Translations under genes and position numbers: made by a program
Shown here: in pieces, positions 28,888 through 51,073 of the stretch
Layout: each line of letters begins with the position of its first letter
Position numbering within the stretch: the first letter of the stretch is position 1
DNA from: a virus
Lineage: Duplodnaviria > Caudoviricetes
Length of the DNA: 53,190 nt
Reading direction: 5' to 3' (one strand)
Virus record (IMG/VR): IMGVR_UViG_3300018083_000037
Span: 1-53,190 of that record
Notes under the pieces: model-generated
Database searches by the model: none
Told to the model about the DNA's origin: nothing
The model's input: only the letters and a program-made list of their open reading frames with translations

Positions 28888-29454
28888 ATGGCAGATGTTG
28901 TCTGGAAAGATGTAATCGGGTTTGAAGGACTATATAAGGTAAGCAGCGATGGCAGGATATTGAGCCTTCAAAAAATTAGATATTGTAGTTCTGATGTAAA
29001 TCCAGTAATATACCCTGATCGGGTGCTATCCCCAGGCGTCGTTAAGGGCTATTTTTTGGTCAGCCTCTCTAAAGACACAATTATTTTTCAGCGAAAAGTT
29101 CATAGACTTGTAGCCGAAGCCTTCCTTCCTAAGCCGATTCATAAAGATCAGGTAAATCATATTAACGGAATAAAATGTGACAATAGGGTTGAGAATTTAG
29201 AATGGTGCACAGCACAGGAAAATGTAATCCATTCATATAAGACCGGCTTAAAGAAAGGAAGAAAGTTTGGCGCCCATCATTCAGCAAAAAGAGTTTTAGA
29301 TAAATCATTGGGCGTTCACTATGACACAGTAAAAGAAGCAGCCAGCGCCGAAGGGGTCGCATGGAGCACTCTTTCTTCCTTTATGAACAACCACCATAAA
29401 CCCATGTCAACCAAAATGAGGCAACGATTAAGCAAATTTATTTTTCAAACCTAA
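28888..29454 (+). CDS. NUMOD4-HNH homing endonuclease
   Basis: 'WKDVIGFEGLYKVSSDGRI', 'VHRLVAEAF', 'VNHING.K.DNRVENLEW'. Confidence 0.92.
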   Translation: MADVVWKDVIGFEGLYKVSSDGRILSLQKIRYCSSDVNPVIYPDRVLSPGVVKGYFLVSLSKDTIIFQRKVHRLVAEAFLPKPIHKDQVNHINGIKCDNRVENLEWCTAQENVIHSYKTGLKKGRKFGAHHSAKRVLDKSLGVHYDTVKEAASAEGVAWSTLSSFMNNHHKPMSTKMRQRLSKFIFQT

Positions 29455-30633
29455 TAGCCTTTCATGCTGTCGTTGTTTGTTCCTGATGTCGTACACTTTT
29501 GCAACCATGCTGGTTGTCGTATGAGCGCTTAATTCTGCAGCTGCTTGTTCATCGAGGGCATCAACAACTTCCGTCACGTTAAGATGTTTCAGGTTATAAA
29601 ATCCTACATCGATACCAAGATCCTGTTTCACGTAATATTGCCAGTAACGGCTTGTCATAGATTCACCCATTGGCTTCATCCCGGGCCTGAGTAGCGGACC
29701 GAAGATGAAATGATCATCAGGACAATTGTCCAAAAAATACTTCCAATATGGCAATGCGATGGTTTTGATTGTCCGCTCCACTTCCGTGTATTGCTTTCTC
29801 TTCTTTACAATGCATCTGTAAGTTTGCTTCTGCAGGTTGACCATCGATGGCTTCAGCTGTCGGAGCTCCGGCATCCGGCCACCGGAATGAAAGAACAGGT
29901 GCACGAAGTTTCGGAATGCCGGGAATACTGCAGCCAGATGCTCGTCAATCTTTTTTCGCTGATTATCAATCAATACTTTTTTCAATTTCTTGGTTACTGG
30001 TTTTTTTGAAATGTCCCGTAGCGGATTGGTCGGCACTGCTTCCAGTTCCACCAATTCTTTAAACAACATCATCAGGTAACCGCGGTACGTGTTATACCTG
30101 GTGTTGGTAAACTTGATTGAATTGATGGCGCATTGATCCAGGATGGTTTTTAAATGCCTCCTGGTAACGCTGTTAATCGATGTATTGTAAATGCCCAGCT
30201 GCCTGGCTGCCTTTTCCAACTTGGTGATCATGCTTTTCATATCAATTTTGGTGCGCTGAGTGATGGTTAATCTTGCTAGTGATTTCGTCAGCGCCTTAAT
30301 AAACGGCGTAGTAGGATCTATCTCCGATTGATCAGAAATGCCAGGCGGTATAAACGTTTTGGTGATCGGGTTATAACCATCTTCTTTAAGGAGGCGCAAT
30401 TCATTCTCCAGCAATTTTTCTGTTGCCTGCCGGCGCTCAGGCAATGTCCTGTAGACATTCATTCCCTTTACAAATACCAGCTTACCATACTTGTATTTAT
30501 CCATATGCTCAGGATCCTTAAAGTAGTATTGAATACGCCATGTTTTTGTGAGCAGAGAAGCACCGCCATTGCGCCAATTCTTGGGGGAAACTGATAGGTC
30601 GCTGCACCAGCAGCCGTGAGGAAGTTGTAGCAT
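29428..30633 (-). CDS. int: Tyrosine integrase
   Basis: 401 aa; 'SGGRMPEL' (R), 'YNLKH', 'SAHTT...VY' catalytic-type motifs; adjacent to att core. Confidence 0.9.
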   Translation of the reverse strand: MLQLPHGCWCSDLSVSPKNWRNGGASLLTKTWRIQYYFKDPEHMDKYKYGKLVFVKGMNVYRTLPERRQATEKLLENELRLLKEDGYNPITKTFIPPGISDQSEIDPTTPFIKALTKSLARLTITQRTKIDMKSMITKLEKAARQLGIYNTSINSVTRRHLKTILDQCAINSIKFTNTRYNTYRGYLMMLFKELVELEAVPTNPLRDISKKPVTKKLKKVLIDNQRKKIDEHLAAVFPAFRNFVHLFFHSGGRMPELRQLKPSMVNLQKQTYRCIVKKRKQYTEVERTIKTIALPYWKYFLDNCPDDHFIFGPLLRPGMKPMGESMTSRYWQYYVKQDLGIDVGFYNLKHLNVTEVVDALDEQAAAELSAHTTTSMVAKVYDIRNKQRQHERLLGLKNKFA

Positions 30634-30730: not shown

Positions 30731-30784
30731 TGTGCCCAGAACAGGAATCGAACCTGCACATCCTTGCGGACACCAGATTTTGAG
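30731..30784 (-). other. attP: attP core: 3' half of tRNA-Leu(CAA)
   Basis: Minus strand CTCAAAA-TCTGG-TGTCCGCAAGGATG-TGCAGGTTCGATTCCTGT-TCTGGGCA: anticodon loop, long variable arm, T arm, 3' acceptor strand; no 5' half. Confidence 0.88.
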
Positions 30785-30876
30785 AATGAGGCTGGACGTT
30801 TTCAATTTGTAAACCTTTTGATCTATAGCTAGTTAGTTTTTTTAATATCATCGTATTACGCACCAGATTCTCATGA

Positions 30877-38924: not shown

Positions 38925-39030
38925 TGAATTTAAGTAGCGGCGCAGACCCTGCCTCTTGGCAAAAGATAACTAATTAACAAAATTCATTGGTAGGGTAACC
39001 GAAGGTGAGTTTTTAAAGCAAAGCGCCGAA

Positions 39031-39990
39031 GTGAGACGAATTAAAAATCTATATCAGGAAATCTGCAGCATGAAAAACCTGTTGCTTGCAGATGAAAAAG
39101 CCAGAAAAGGTAAAGCCTGGCAATACGGCGTTCGGATCCATGAGAAAAACAGGGATGGGAATCTACTCGTATTGCAGGACCAGTTACTCAACAAAACATA
39201 TAAAACTTCCCACTACACCACTTTCAAGGTTTATGAACCAAAGGAAAGGGAAGTATTTCGCCTTCCATATTATCCTGACAGGATCACCCATCACGCTATA
39301 ATGAATCTGATGGAACCCGTGTTTGTCTCAGTCTTTACCGCCGACACATATAGCTGTATTAAGAAGCGTGGAATTCATGCAGCCGCGTATGCCGTTAAAA
39401 AAGCTTTGCGGGACGTACCTGGCAGCCAATATTGCCTGAAACTTGACATAACGAAATTTTACCCAAATATTGATCACGATGTCTTAAAGCAGCTGTTGAG
39501 AAGGAAAATAAAGGACCAAGATCTTCTTTGGCTACTGGACGAGATCATTGATAGCGCACCCGGGCTTCCGATCGGCAACTATCTCAGCCAATACCTGGCA
39601 AATTTCTATCTCACTTATTTTGATCATTGGATAAAGGAGCAGCTGCAGGTGAAGTATTACTTCCGTTATGCTGATGACCTCGTGATATTGTCTGGTAATA
39701 AAGAAATCTTACACATGGTGTTTGACAGGATCAGTGAATACATGAGCGATCGGTTAAAGCTTCAGGTGAAATCCAACTGGCAAATATTCCCGGTTGATGC
39801 CAGGGGAATTGATTTTGTCGGATATCGGTTCTGGCATACTCATACTCTTCTCCGGAAAACAATTAAGAAAAACTTTGCCAGGATGGTCCATATGAACCGA
39901 AACGATGCGTCGATCGCTTCTTACTTGGGTTGGGCGAAACATTGCAACAGTAATCATTTAATAAAAACATTATTACATGAAGCGGTTTAA
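39031..39990 (+). CDS. DGR reverse transcriptase
   Basis: 'YPDRITHHA', 'KLDITKFYPNI', 'GLPIGNYLSQ', 'RYADD', 'IDFVGY'; no maturase/endonuclease tail; adjacent TR/VR. Confidence 0.96.
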   Translation: MRRIKNLYQEICSMKNLLLADEKARKGKAWQYGVRIHEKNRDGNLLVLQDQLLNKTYKTSHYTTFKVYEPKEREVFRLPYYPDRITHHAIMNLMEPVFVSVFTADTYSCIKKRGIHAAAYAVKKALRDVPGSQYCLKLDITKFYPNIDHDVLKQLLRRKIKDQDLLWLLDEIIDSAPGLPIGNYLSQYLANFYLTYFDHWIKEQLQVKYYFRYADDLVILSGNKEILHMVFDRISEYMSDRLKLQVKSNWQIFPVDARGIDFVGYRFWHTHTLLRKTIKKNFARMVHMNRNDASIASYLGWAKHCNSNHLIKTLLHEAV

Positions 39991-49395: not shown

Positions 49396-50025
49396 GTGAA
49401 AGAAATACCAATCCTATTCAGCACCGCGATGTGTCAGGCTCTGATTGCCGGTAGGAAAACAATGACCAGGCGGATGGTAAAGGGCACACCTCTTAAATGG
49501 CTGGATGACTTTACTTCAGAGTATGTAGCCATGCCGGAGAATAGTCTATGTCCCTACGGAAAGCCGGGGGATCTCCTTTGGGTAAGGGAAAGCTGTCTGT
49601 TTCTGCAATCGCAACCAAAGTCCGGATGGATATACAGGGCAGATGGTCACGACGATATTGACGAAGCATTGAAGCGGGAACGCTACCGGTGGCGGCCATC
49701 AATCCACATGCCAAAAGTAGCAGCACGTATCTGGCTGGAAGTAACCGATGTCAAAGTGGAACGGCTGCAACAAATTAGTAAGGAGGAAGCGATCGCGGAA
49801 GGCATCCTACACGACGAGATTGGGTTCAAAGACTATGATATGGCAATGGCAAAGGGATATGGGCATCCTGATTATGATTATCAACACGTTCAAGATGCGA
49901 AATTATCATTCAAATCGCTGTGGCAATCAATAAATGGTTGGGAAAGTTGGAATATCAATCCTTGGGTATGGTGTGTGTCGTTCAAAGTGCTCAGTACGAC
50001 AGGGAAGCCACAACTAAAAGTATAA
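49396..50025 (+). CDS. ASCH/PUA-like phage protein
   Basis: 'PILFS..M..AL..GRKTMTRR', 'CPYG.PGD.LWVRE', 'WRPSIHMP', 'NPWVW'. Confidence 0.8.
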   Translation: MKEIPILFSTAMCQALIAGRKTMTRRMVKGTPLKWLDDFTSEYVAMPENSLCPYGKPGDLLWVRESCLFLQSQPKSGWIYRADGHDDIDEALKRERYRWRPSIHMPKVAARIWLEVTDVKVERLQQISKEEAIAEGILHDEIGFKDYDMAMAKGYGHPDYDYQHVQDAKLSFKSLWQSINGWESWNINPWVWCVSFKVLSTTGKPQLKV

Positions 50026-50189
50026 ATTGACAACCAGGTTAACGAATCCTAAAGGTTGGCGTGACAACGATCGTTGTCATAAGCCATGAGTTATAATGAG
50101 ATAGCTATTATCAACACCACGTGACAAAATTCTGCAAGCAAGAATTTTGTTTTTATGGCTCAGTAGCCATAATATTGAGTTTAGAAAAG

Positions 50190-50260
50190 TGGAGCTGGAG
50201 GGAGTCGAACCCTAAAGGTGACCCGCGCCAACGAGCACTGCGACCTCTCGCACCAGCCCC
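50190..50260 (-). ncRNA. 71-nt tRNA-Ala/tmRNA-like element (non-canonical)
   Basis: GGGGCTG/CAGCTCC-A acceptor stem with G3:U70; AGGG-TTCGACT-CCCT T arm; non-canonical D and anticodon arms. Confidence 0.55.
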
Positions 50261-50272
50261 GCTAATCAACCC

Positions 50273-50303
50273 AAAAGTCGCATCACACGTGAATGCGGCT
50301 TTT
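50273..50303. terminator. Bidirectional hairpin terminator
   Basis: AAAAGTCGCAT-cacacgtga-ATGCGGCTTTT. Confidence 0.7.
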
Positions 50304-50583
50304 GTCATTTGCAATAATATCTAATAGGCTTTTATATTTCTTTATTCAAATATTAACAATGTGTGGATAAGAGGATTTGACATGATGTAAATCATTGCAC
50401 GGCAATTATTAATGATTTTTTTCACATTTGGATAAGTTTAACACATTTTCACATTATTCTGTGCATTTCCCTCGCTTCTATTTCACCACATTCAAAGCCG
50501 CCGGAACGTTTGTAACTAACGCCATAAATCCCACTTTCTCCCACTTATTGACATTGTAAAAATTACATTGTAATTAAAATAAT

Positions 50584-50591
50584 TACATTTG
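50584..50591 (+). promoter_or_regulatory. -7 box upstream of terS
   Basis: TACATTTG, 8 nt before ATG 50600. Confidence 0.6.
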
Positions 50592-50599
50592 GGTTATCT

Positions 50600-51073
50600 A
50601 TGGGAGGCCGGACAATCGGACACAATAAAAAAGGGAAAAGATCAAAAGAGAAGCAACAGGCTGATTTTTTGGCTCGATTTTCCACCTTAGCATCGGTTTC
50701 AAAGGCTTGTAAATTATCAAGGGTACCACGATCAAATATTTACGATTGGTTAAAAATCGATACACAGTTTAAACAATTGTACGATTTAACCGCCGACCAA
50801 GCTTTGGGTGCACTAGAAGATGAAGCCGTTCGGAGGGCTTTCGAGGGAACAAACAGGCCTGTTTTTCAAGGTGGCAAGAAGGTGGGTTTGATAAGAGAAT
50901 ACTCAGATACACTTTTGATCGTGCTTCTTAAAGCCAGGGCTCCAGAAAAATATAAGGATCGTATGTATCAGGAACTTACTGGAAAGGGAGGCGGACCAGT
51001 GGCCACCGAATTAAAGATCATCAATATTGCTTCAAAAGTTCCTTTAGCCCAGTCCGAAGAAGAAATCAAGTAA
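50600..51073 (+). CDS. terS: Terminase small subunit
   Basis: HTH, 'LEDEAVRRA.EG', 'YSDTLLIVLLKA..PEKY', 'ELTGKGGGP'. Confidence 0.85.
   Translation: MGGRTIGHNKKGKRSKEKQQADFLARFSTLASVSKACKLSRVPRSNIYDWLKIDTQFKQLYDLTADQALGALEDEAVRRAFEGTNRPVFQGGKKVGLIREYSDTLLIVLLKARAPEKYKDRMYQELTGKGGGPVATELKIINIASKVPLAQSEEEIK

What the first reader, a model, noticed from the sequence alone, without database searches (positions are those of the whole stretch)
50190..50260. tRNA-sized element with alanine identity but non-canonical arms
Seen (minus strand): GGGGCTG GTGCGAGAGGTCGCA GTGCTCGTTGGCGCGGGTCAC CTT TAGGGTTCGACTCCCTC CAGCTCC A. It has a 7-bp acceptor stem with G3:U70 and A73, and a T loop. The D position is a 5-bp hairpin (TGCGA-gagg-TCGCA), the second hairpin has a TGGC loop, and no CCA is encoded. 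Known: G3:U70/A73 are AlaRS determinants, and these termini resemble tmRNA ends. Inference: a tRNA mimic, a tmRNA tRNA-like-domain decoy without a tag ORF, an RNase P/Z processing signal on an antisense transcript, or a decayed tRNA.
Basis: partly seen in the sequence, partly recalled or inferred. Interest (0 to 1): 0.7.

Follow-up and report, generated by a model that had tools for sequence, protein, structure and literature searches.

The report
Phage alanine-type tRNA mimic gene
A temperate phage carries a small gene for a tRNA-shaped RNA that has every mark for being loaded with alanine but no usable anticodon, so it most likely acts as a decoy rather than a decoder; this is an unusual variant of a known phage trick.

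Summary
Window 50260..50190 (minus strand) encodes a 71-nt cloverleaf with G3·U70 and A73, followed by CUU instead of CCA.

It is not chance. Rfam tmRNA matches at 25.9 bits, E 1.6e-8, below the gathering score of 47.

It belongs to no annotated class:
- ARAGORN at default settings finds nothing.
- A model of DS6A-type "tRNA-like-domain-only" phage tmRNAs gives 34 bits. A model of phage tRNA-Ala gives 32 bits. Unrelated molecules that share only the acceptor stem and T arm score the same.

Only two other versions turned up, in related phages at the same position before the small terminase gene. All 24 stem pairs, the D loop and the T loop are kept. Differences fall in a 6-nt apical loop and the 4-nt variable region.

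Best reading (0.45): an expressed, non-decoding, alanine-accepting tRNA mimic that works like the DS6A tmRNA fragment.

Not shown: transcription, charging, partners. Covariation is too thin to prove the fold (157/500 shuffles). It is not the phage attP: the integrase is 19.5 kb away and has its own tRNA fragment beside it.

The parts
50190..50260 (-). tRNA-shaped gene, 71 nt from G1 (50260) to discriminator A (50190); no CCA, the trailer starts CUUUUC
   Evidence: Sequence. Rfam tmRNA 25.9 bits, E 1.6e-8. Consensus cloverleaf on 3 sequences. ARAGORN calls the two relatives at a 90% threshold as tRNA-??? with a 2-letter anticodon; it calls the window only as tRNA-Ala(cgc) in a shifted frame at 90%, and as (gg) at 60%.
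50253..50260 (-). 5' acceptor strand G1-G8 (GGGGCUGG), pairing with 50191-50198 (CCAGCUCC). G3·U70-type wobble at the third pair; the eighth pair G8:C63 is optional
   Evidence: 8 of 8 pairs standard in 3 of 3 sequences, none varies. A73, G2:C71, G3·U70, G4:C69 are the bacterial AlaRS acceptor determinants (PMC9976931 table passage).
50239..50252 (-). D-position hairpin UGCGA-GAGG-UCGCA (5 pairs, 4-nt loop with GG)
   Evidence: The only change among 3 sequences is A22G, which turns U:A into U:G. That change keeps the pair on the minus-strand RNA only.
50218..50238 (-). Anticodon-position arm: 3 pairs, bulged U40, 4 pairs, 6-nt loop UUGGCG (element positions 30-35, window 50226-50231)
   Evidence: The loop differs at 4 of 6 positions among the three versions. 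The closing pair is G:C in the window and A:U in L125 and L134.
50214..50217 (-). 4-nt variable region CUUU (UCUA in L125)
50199..50213 (-). T arm AGGG-UUCGACU-CCCU (4 pairs, canonical 7-nt T loop)
   Evidence: Invariant in 3 of 3 sequences.
50271..50302 (.). Hairpin with an A-tract before it and a U-tract after it, 10 nt upstream of G1 on the minus strand. It is terminator-like on both strands and pairs better on the plus strand (7 pairs including one G·U, against a C·A mismatch on the minus strand)
   Evidence: One search lists it on the minus strand (50297..50279). Identical in the three phages. The strand comparison is my reading of the letters.
50124..50172 (.). Two hairpins downstream of the element (50153-50172 and 50124-50150): likely bidirectional terminators between the early operon (+) and the element (-)
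   Evidence: inverted repeat I4. In L134 the first hairpin is replaced by other letters (GGCC-GCUG-GGCC) that still form a hairpin.
50056..50598 (.). Intergenic block conserved between the window and L125, while the genes on both sides diverge. It holds the element, the hairpins and direct repeats before the small terminase gene. A divergent island lies at about 50464-50529
   Evidence: Alignment A1 (86% mean column identity). Repeats. Coordinates derived by me from the alignment.

Best explanation
The element is a phage gene for a small, stable, non-decoding tRNA mimic with alanine identity.

Inferred pathway. The minus-strand transcript folds into a compact cloverleaf with an 8+4 (or 7+4) acceptor/T stack, a closed D hairpin, an arm about 2 bp longer than a tRNA anticodon stem, and a normal T loop. 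RNase P would cut before G1. A 3' endonuclease of the RNase Z type would cut after A73, because no CCA is encoded. The host CCA-adding enzyme would finish the end. AlaRS would then load alanine, since all acceptor-stem determinants are present and AlaRS does not read the anticodon.

Because the apical loop has 6 nt and drifts freely, the RNA cannot read codons. It would act as a competitor for whatever recognises the alanine-type acceptor/T-arm half: AlaRS, EF-Tu, possibly SmpB and the rescue pathway, or a tRNA-targeting host nuclease.

The leading specific version (about 0.25 to 0.3 on its own) is that it works like the DS6A tRNA-like-domain-only tmRNA and dampens host trans-translation during infection.

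Shown: sequence, fold potential, identity elements, conservation pattern, non-membership in the two nearest families. Inferred: transcription, processing, charging, target.
For: - Complete bacterial AlaRS acceptor set (A73, G2:C71, G3·U70, G4:C69), identical in 3 of 3 versions (determinants from PMC9976931).
- Canonical T loop and a GG-containing D loop, both invariant.
- 72 of 72 pair cells are standard pairs in the cloverleaf, against 43 to 51% when partners are slid by 1 to 3 columns.
- All 3 stem differences between the window and L125 keep pairing (one U:A to U:G, one double change G:C to A:U). 6 of 23 unpaired positions differ, and all lie in the apical loop and variable region. The flanks differ at 7 of 72 and 8 of 134 positions.
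- G·U pairs (G3·U70, U27·G38, and U9·G22 in L125) fit the minus strand only.
- The same position and strand occur in three related phages.
- Frame-breaking indels in other samples exclude the overlapping plus-strand ORF 50121-50324.
- ARAGORN at 90% threshold reads L125 and L134 as tRNA with a 2-letter anticodon, meaning a 6-nt loop.
- Precedent: the DS6A tRNA-like-domain-only tmRNA; a similar molecule strongly inhibits tmRNA in E. coli (passages of PMC4131195 and PMC11915505).
- Viral contigs hold many other ARAGORN-negative RNAs with the same acceptor stem (32 of 93 unique sequences). Anticodon-less alanine mimics therefore recur in phages.
Against: - No expression evidence: 0 of 13 listed runs is RNA.
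- No promoter was found on the minus strand. The sigma-70 scan gives none there and there is no Bacteroidota-type TAnnTTTG.
- A terminator-like hairpin sits 10 nt upstream.
- Only three sequences exist. 22 of 24 pairs never vary, and the covariation measures are reached by 157 of 500 shuffles.
- Folding energy is unremarkable (z about -2). The window's own best fold is not the cloverleaf.
- The motifs conserved in tmRNA tRNA-like domains next to the SmpB site are absent. SmpB titration is therefore doubtful.
- The whole intergenic block is conserved. Conservation of the stems could partly reflect recent exchange of the block rather than selection on the RNA.
Confidence: 0.45

Rival explanations
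1. A working, decoding tRNA of unusual shape (a compact or 8/4-type tRNA-Ala). In a 7-nt register the loop reads Y-U-NNN-R-Y, with anticodon GGC (Ala) in the window.
For: - In a 7-nt register the three loops are UUGGCGC, CUGGUAU and UUGACGU. All three keep Y32, U33 and R37.
- The window's triplet GGC matches the alanine identity of the acceptor stem. The tRNA-Ala model aligns it to the anticodon loop.
- A called tRNA-Ala(UGC) of the same length (71 nt), with the same acceptor stem and a T arm differing at one loop position, a 4-nt D loop and a 7-bp anticodon stem, exists in another viral contig (L126).
- tRNAs with 8/4 stacks, some with G3:U70, insert alanine in E. coli (PMC5389517 abstract and passages).
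Against: - In the 7-nt register the stem has two mismatches (C26·U40 and R29·G37). The better fold closes the loop to 6 nt, with a pair that changes on both sides.
- The triplet changes to GGU (Thr) and GAC (Val) in close relatives while the alanine identity stays fixed. That would cause mistranslation.
- ARAGORN default finds no gene in the window, nor in L125 or L134.
- The tRNA-Ala model gives 30.7 to 32.6 bits, against 49 to 82 for real tRNA-Ala genes outside the training set.
- G instead of U at position 8.
Confidence: 0.12
2. A structural processing or insulating signal rather than an acting RNA. A tRNA-like fold would be cut by RNase P or RNase Z to set the ends of a neighbouring transcript, or the GC-rich module together with flanking terminators would separate the early (+) and late (+) units.
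For: - The element sits between terminator-like hairpins on both sides.
- The downstream hairpin is kept as a hairpin in L134 through many substitutions.
- There is a weak match to the mascRNA/menRNA family, a tRNA-like processing signal, at 23.2 bits, E 0.032, below its gathering score of 42.5.
- A free apical loop is expected if only the RNase P/Z substrate shape matters.
Against: - A processing signal does not need the G3·U70 wobble or the full AlaRS set, yet these are intact in all three versions.
- No conserved small RNA or ORF that would need such an end was identified on the minus strand next to it.
- The mascRNA match is below threshold and rests on the acceptor stem and T arm only.
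Confidence: 0.15
3. A silent relic or DNA-level site: a captured tRNA-Ala or tmRNA gene that is decaying, or a recombination or attachment sequence carried along in a conserved block at a module boundary.
For: - The family is tiny: three versions in 2.9 million viral contigs, the metagenome collection and 185,579 genomes.
- More distant phages with a related small terminase lack it: 0 of 3 loci L120-L122 have a tRNA or tmRNA-like hit.
- The block it lies in is exchanged as a unit between mosaic genomes.
- A 14-nt repeat of its variable-region/T-arm stretch (13 of 14 identical) lies exactly at the edge of that block.
- No promoter was found.
Against: - All four stems are intact in all versions and every stem change preserves pairing. 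A decaying gene should show broken pairs.
- Both acceptor strands are present, unlike an att remnant.
- The integrase is 19.5 kb away, with its own tRNA 3'-half-like fragment beside it.
- The 14-nt repeat is weaker in L134 (10 of 14 by my count).
Confidence: 0.15

Closest known systems
tRNA-like-domain-only tmRNA of mycobacteriophage DS6A (JN698994 28478-28560) and the DS6A-type genes found here in viral contigs
   Same: Phage-encoded, tRNA-sized, with a G3·U70/A73 acceptor stem and a tmRNA-type T arm. No tag reading frame, no anticodon, no encoded CCA. Both fall below the Rfam tmRNA gathering score (DS6A 43.2 bits, this element 25.9).
   Different: DS6A-type genes keep the unpaired D-loop analogue (consensus GGUUUCGAC), a P2a helix, an inner UAAAnCCnCAnGnGG hairpin and the GGAC neck (27-row alignment). 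This element has none of them. Instead it has a closed D hairpin and a tRNA-like arm. Its score on the family model (34.1 bits) equals that of plain tRNA-Ala genes (29 to 37), while outside relatives reach 44 to 58.
Bacterial and phage tRNA-Ala
   Same: Identical acceptor stem letters to 61 ARAGORN-called phage tRNA-Ala genes, since the search pattern required them. Same T loop and A73. The window's loop contains GGC after a U.
   Different: G8 instead of U8. A 4-nt D loop on a 5-bp stem. A 7-pair bulged arm with a 6-nt loop. A 4-bp T stem. Not called by ARAGORN. 32 bits on the tRNA-Ala model, against 49 to 82 for real ones.
(8/4) and (9/3) non-canonical tRNAs / allo-tRNAs (Mukai et al., PMC5389517)
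   Same: A 12-bp acceptor/T stack that can be split 8+4, and a closed, tRNA-Sec-like D arm. Such tRNAs are found in bacteria and their phages, some have G3:U70, and these were charged with alanine in E. coli (abstract and passages).
   Different: Allo-tRNAs have a long variable arm and a normal 7-nt anticodon loop, and they decode. This element has a 4-nt variable region and a 6-nt loop. Their supplementary figures, which could hold closer forms, were not available to me.
tRNA-like processing signals such as mascRNA (Rfam RF01684)
   Same: Acceptor stem, short stems and T arm without a decoding anticodon. Weak Rfam match at 23.2 bits, E 0.032.
   Different: That family is eukaryotic and the match is below its gathering score (42.5). 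It rests on the generic acceptor stem and T arm. There is no evidence here of a long RNA whose end it would define.

Membership tests
tmRNA (Rfam RF00023) | Acceptor stem with G3·U70, discriminator A73, T arm with canonical T loop | tested here: met
   these parts align with posterior probability near 1.
tmRNA (Rfam RF00023) | Score at or above the curated gathering score (47 bits) | tested here: not met
   25.9 bits. Not listed in the gathering-threshold scan.
tmRNA (Rfam RF00023) | mRNA-like domain with tag reading frame and pseudoknots | tested here: not met
   304 model positions are replaced by 17 nt. ARAGORN finds no tmRNA.
tmRNA tRNA-like domain / DS6A-type tRNA-like-domain-only genes | Unpaired D-loop analogue (GGnUUCGAC) and GGAC neck flanking helix P2a. 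That this region lies at the SmpB contact is recalled, not tested. | tested here: not met
   The consensus and invariant columns of 27 aligned genes are absent in the element: the D-loop analogue is deleted and the neck is unmatched in the model alignment.
tmRNA tRNA-like domain / DS6A-type tRNA-like-domain-only genes | Scores on a family covariance model above molecules that share only the acceptor stem and T arm | tested here: not met
   Model R1 gives window 34.1, L125 34.7, L134 33.8 bits. tRNA-Ala controls L126 and L132 give 37.4 and 29.1. tRNA-like-domain-like sequences outside the training set give 44 to 58 (16 sources).
tmRNA tRNA-like domain / DS6A-type tRNA-like-domain-only genes | Binds SmpB and inhibits trans-translation | not testable with these tools
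   Needs a binding assay and a tagging reporter.
tRNA-Ala | AlaRS acceptor determinants A73, G2:C71, G3·U70, G4:C69 | tested here: met
   Determinant list from PMC9976931.
tRNA-Ala | Canonical cloverleaf found by tRNA finders: U8, 7-11-nt D loop, 5-bp anticodon stem, 7-nt loop with an Ala anticodon | tested here: not met
   ARAGORN default gives 0 genes. At 90% threshold the relatives are called tRNA-??? with 2-letter anticodons. Model R2 gives 30.7 to 32.6 bits, against 49 to 82 for real ones and 32.3 for DS6A. The anticodon triplet is not conserved.
(8/4) non-canonical tRNAs / allo-tRNA | 8-bp acceptor stem plus 4-bp T stem | tested here: inconclusive
   G8:C63 and a 4-pair T stem are possible in 3 of 3 sequences, and the base before the T stem varies unpaired. 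No pair of this stack varies, so the split rests on folding alone.
(8/4) non-canonical tRNAs / allo-tRNA | Long variable arm and a decoding 7-nt anticodon loop | tested here: not met
   4-nt variable region and 6-nt loop.
Phage attP / remnant of a host tRNA or ssrA gene | Lies next to the integrase and holds only the 3' part of the target gene | tested here: not met
   The integrase is at 29428-30633. The element holds both acceptor strands. A separate 3'-half-like fragment with a T-loop match at 30744-30754 lies beside the integrase.

The most novel reading that the evidence does not exclude
This element would be one end of a broad, largely unannotated class of phage RNAs: alanine-chargeable, anticodon-less tRNA mimics. 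The class would range from DS6A-type tmRNA fragments to full cloverleaf forms like this one. Here the apical loop would be an evolvable specificity module that is matched to a host factor, for example a tRNA-targeting defence nuclease or the ribosome-rescue machinery. The phage would use the RNA to disarm that factor.
Probability: 0.2. Interest if true: 0.75.

Novelty: new variant of a known kind. Interest (0 to 1): 0.45.

Why it matters
Phage tRNA genes are usually read as codon-usage helpers or as replacements for tRNAs cut by host defences. A phage RNA that keeps everything needed to be loaded with alanine and to look like a tRNA, yet gives up decoding, points to a different use: competing with host tmRNA or tRNA-Ala for their partners.

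In the passages I read, the only phage case named is the DS6A tmRNA fragment. Standard tools miss both that class and this element, so such genes are probably under-counted in phage genomes.

If charging and a target were shown, this would give a small, easily engineered probe of trans-translation or of tRNA-directed defence in a likely Bacteroidota host. If the RNA is not made, the finding is only a curious relic.

Tried and rejected
- attP or att remnant: rejected.
- Protein-coding on either strand: ORFs 50121-50324 (+) and 50153-50314 (-) overlap the element. Contigs of other samples carry indels at 50156, 50169 and 50261 (net -1) inside the plus-strand ORF, and the changes follow RNA pairing.
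- Loop as an antisense or kissing partner: 8 to 10-nt complements of each phage's loop occur only by chance and not at homologous places.
- tRNA-like primer for the phage reverse transcriptase: no complement of the element's 3' end elsewhere in the window (3 other hits, each with 3 mismatches; 0.76 hits expected by chance).
- More homologues: patterns anchored on the acceptor stem, the D hairpin, the upstream hairpin (L140 holds the hairpin at a contig end, with the element cut off) and a degenerate cloverleaf (7 other loci, 6 of them ordinary tRNAs in another register and 1 unrelated) gave only L125 (same contig as L123 and L137) and L134.
- GenBank phages: no match to the element. 2 records matched only the neighbouring ORF.
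- Expression: no RNA holder listed among 13 runs. The 4 runs laid were DNA contigs and showed only the L134-type variant.
- Minus-strand promoter: none found by the sigma-70 scan or a TAnnTTTG search. A near-consensus TTGTTA-17-TATAAA at about 50357-50329 is my own reading and is only partly kept in L125.
- The AcrIIIA1 paper (PMC11662646, passages) concerns a protein that makes t(m)RNA fragments. It does not bear on this element.
- Literature searches for a described equivalent found only the DS6A mentions and the 8/4 tRNA work. 'phage-encoded tmRNA' gave 0 papers. 'tRNA-like + phage + SmpB + decoy' gave 0.
- Mao et al. 2009 was not read; I know it only through.
Those of PMC5389517 and PMC11915505 may list closer forms.

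Full report
WHAT IS THERE. The window is a complete 53,190-bp virus record. It sits in a 574-nt gap between two plus-strand genes. One is ORF 49396-50025, of unknown function (PHROG 874). The other is the small terminase gene 50600-51073, which is followed by the large terminase gene. The phage is temperate: a tyrosine integrase is at 29428-30633 on the minus strand. The element is a GC-rich island (0.61 against 0.25 to 0.40 around it).

IS IT REAL. ARAGORN at default settings finds no tRNA or tmRNA in the window. No Rfam family reaches its gathering score at the site. A permissive Rfam scan gives an end-to-end match to tmRNA at 25.9 bits, E 1.6e-8 (gathering score 47). In that match only the acceptor stem and T arm align, and 304 model positions are replaced by 17 nt. 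The one-family search of the record gives E 3e-10. The element is therefore not a chance hairpin. Folding energy alone is unremarkable, at z about -2.

RELATIVES. Pattern scans of 2.9 million viral contigs, the metagenome collection and one genome per prokaryote species found only two other versions:
- L125 (also fetched as L123 and L137; the same 51,415-bp contig).
- L134.
The genome-collection scan gave only L139, which is a different sequence. L125 and L134 lie on the same strand in the same gap, after the same run of genes. Contigs from four further sequencing runs showed only the L134-type letters, in three of those runs. Three more distant phages with a related small terminase (L120-L122) have nothing comparable.

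STRUCTURE AND CONSERVATION. RNAalifold on the three versions gives a cloverleaf:
- 8 acceptor pairs, counting G8:C63.
- A 5-pair D hairpin with loop GAGG.
- A 7-pair arm with a bulged U and a 6-nt loop.
- A 4-nt variable region.
- A 4-pair T stem with loop UUCGACU.
In L125 and L134 this is the minimum-energy fold. In the window it lies 2 kcal/mol above an alternative. All 72 pair cells are standard pairs, against 43 to 51% when partners are slid. However, 22 of 24 pairs never vary, and 157 of 500 shuffles reach the covariation measures, so covariation does not prove the fold.

The pattern of change is more telling. Between the window and L125 there are 3 changes in 48 paired positions, and all keep pairing: U:A to U:G, and the double change G29:C36 to A:U. 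There are 6 changes in 23 unpaired positions. All six lie in the apical loop (positions 30, 34, 35) and the variable region (44, 45, 47). L134 adds a change at loop position 33. The D loop, T loop and bulge are invariant. The flanks differ at 7 of 72 and 8 of 134 positions. The G·U pairs fit the minus-strand RNA only. With a 90% threshold ARAGORN calls L125 and L134 as 'tRNA-???' with two-letter anticodons, which means a 6-nt loop. It calls the window that way only at 60%.

WHICH FAMILY. The acceptor stem carries the full bacterial AlaRS set: A73, G2:C71, G3·U70, G4:C69 (table passage of PMC9976931). To ask whether the rest is tmRNA-like or tRNA-like I built two models.

ARAGORN of them tRNA-Ala and does not. 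Most of the 32 have the layout of the only published phage case, the tRNA-like-domain-only tmRNA of mycobacteriophage DS6A (passages of PMC4131195 and PMC11915505). I located that gene at JN698994 28478-28560, where it scores 43.2 bits on Rfam tmRNA.

I aligned 24 of the 32, plus DS6A and two more loci (27 rows). I left out 8: L004, L009, L050, L054, L055, L082, L099 and L119. The consensus is GGGGCUGnAUGGUUUCGAC, a helix, UAAAnCCnCAnGnGG, the helix return, GGAC, and the T arm.

Model R1 built from this alignment scores the window element at 34.1 bits (L125 34.7, L134 33.8). Ordinary tRNA-Ala genes score 37.4 (L126) and 29.1 (L132). tRNA-like-domain-like sequences outside the training set score 44 to 58. 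The alignment shows the D-loop analogue deleted and the GGAC neck unmatched.

Model R2, built from 27 of 57 tRNA-Ala sequences, scores the element at 30.7 to 32.6 bits. That equals DS6A (32.3). Real tRNA-Ala genes outside the training set reach 49 to 82. Interior identity to any of ten comparators is about 50%, which I judge to be noise.

The element is therefore a member of neither family. Both scores come from the shared acceptor stem and T arm. Its shape (a possible 8+4 stack, a closed D arm, a long second arm) recalls the non-canonical 8/4 tRNAs of bacteria and phages, some of which carry G3:U70 and insert alanine in E. coli (PMC5389517, abstract and passages). Those tRNAs have a long variable arm and a decoding loop.

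WHAT IT IS NOT. It is not attP. The integrase is 19.5 kb away, and a separate tRNA 3'-half-like fragment with an exact T-loop match at 30744-30754 lies beside it. It is not coding. There is no co-varying antisense target of the loop. There is no primer-binding complement for the phage's reverse transcriptase.

HOW IT MOST LIKELY WORKS. The constraints fall on exactly the parts that make an L-shaped, alanine-accepting molecule: acceptor stem, D loop, T loop and all stems. The part a decoder needs, the anticodon loop, is short and free to change. Read as triplets, the loop gives GGC (Ala), GGU (Thr) and GAC (Val) under an unchanged alanine identity.

I therefore read the element as a non-decoding alanine-type tRNA mimic (0.45). 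Processing by RNase P, a 3' endonuclease and the CCA-adding enzyme, and charging by AlaRS, follow from established knowledge of those enzymes. None of this is shown here. The leading target is the trans-translation system, by analogy with DS6A (about 0.25 to 0.3). The missing tmRNA-specific motifs make SmpB binding doubtful, so a decoy for a tRNA-directed host nuclease or for AlaRS/EF-Tu is as good a guess.

Rivals are an odd decoding tRNA (0.12), a processing or insulating signal (0.15) and a silent relic or DNA site (0.15).

Weak points:
- No RNA evidence.
- No recognisable minus-strand promoter.
- A terminator-like hairpin 10 nt upstream.
- Only three sequences.
- The whole intergenic block is conserved and exchanged as a unit.

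HOST. Relatives of the integrase among GenBank phages are nearly all from Bacteroidota phages: 22 records, of which 19 are Riemerella, 2 Cellulophaga and 1 labelled Shigella. The best is Cellulophaga phage phi46:1 at 36% identity over 97% of the protein. The best named relatives of the large terminase are Phocaeicola phages at 36 to 37%. A TACATTTG motif of the Bacteroidota promoter type lies 16 nt before the small terminase start (the motif itself is recalled). Relatives of the DnaB helicase are mixed. A Bacteroidota host is likely but not shown. The DNA occurs mainly in runs labelled freshwater sediment.

VERDICT. This is a new variant of a known kind, of moderate interest and limited by thin evidence.

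Noticed in passing
L006, L019, L038, L043, L070, L073, L086, L090 and others (coordinates); alignment A3: Viral contigs hold many DS6A-type tRNA-like-domain-only mini-tmRNA genes of 75 to 84 nt. Their consensus is GGGGCUGnAUGGUUUCGAC, a helix, a UAAAnCCnCAnGnGG hairpin, GGAC and the T arm. In the passages I read, DS6A is the only such tmRNA fragment named among phages.
   Followed up: partly
window 38945-39022 (+) and 39031-39990 (+); L125 115-192: An RT-17 RNA (42.8 bits, above its gathering score of 40.4) lies directly before a 319-aa reverse transcriptase (RVT_1; best PADLOC models a generic RT and UG17). The related phage L125 has the same RNA about 10 kb from its element. No link to the tRNA-like gene was found.
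   Followed up: partly
window about 30735-30800 (-): Between the integrase and the next gene lies a tRNA 3'-half-like stretch (T arm CAGGTTCGATTCCTG, then TTCTGGGCA) that ARAGORN does not call. It is the likely attP core and could name the host tRNA gene.
   Followed up: no
L132 267-340, L133 529-602, L126 3873-3943: ARAGORN calls L126 tRNA-Ala(UGC), and it has an unusual build: 71 nt, a 3-pair D stem with a 4-nt loop and a 7-pair anticodon stem. L132 and L133 carry a UGC loop (L132 was called as one gene, with the type not displayed) and can be drawn with an 8-pair acceptor and a 4-pair T stem. That is my reading of the letters and was not tested.
   Followed up: no
L129, L131, L136, L135, L138, L130, L139 (coordinates): Other 68 to 72-nt RNAs have the same acceptor stem, a short hairpin with a UGGU-type loop at the D position, a long irregular arm without an anticodon-like loop and a T arm. 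They score between the tRNA-like-domain-only and tRNA models. They may bridge DS6A-type genes and the present element.
   Followed up: partly
window 50153-50172 and L134 (alignment A5, columns 160-180): The hairpin just downstream of the element is rewritten in L134 (AUGGCU-ACUG-AGCCAU becomes GGCC-GCUG-GGCC) but remains a hairpin. This suggests selection for a structure there, probably a terminator.
   Followed up: no
window 50043-50056 and 50206-50219: A 14-nt direct repeat (13 of 14 identical) copies the variable-region/T-arm stretch of the element to the exact edge of the block conserved with L125. It is unexplained and weaker in L134.
   Followed up: partly
window 50419-50455 and 50547-50586: Direct repeats lie in the conserved AT-rich stretch before the small terminase gene: TTTTCACATT twice, and a 20-nt unit ATTG(A/T)(C/A)ATT... 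twice. They may be terminase-binding or packaging-site repeats.
   Followed up: no
run X4, contig record 8 (window 50182-50213): A 151-nt contig matches only the T-arm/3'-acceptor part (2 differences in 32 nt). It continues with a GGAC-type neck on one side and a terminator-like hairpin on the other. It looks like the 3' end of a bacterial tmRNA gene from the same kind of habitat.
   Followed up: no
window 49396-50025 (+): The gene convergent with the element (PHROG 874, unknown function) has a relative annotated as a YqfB-like ASCH-domain protein in Roseburia phage Jekyll. The Pfam ASCH match is only E 0.17. ASCH is a putative RNA-binding fold. The gene also occurs in a phage without the element.
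   Followed up: partly
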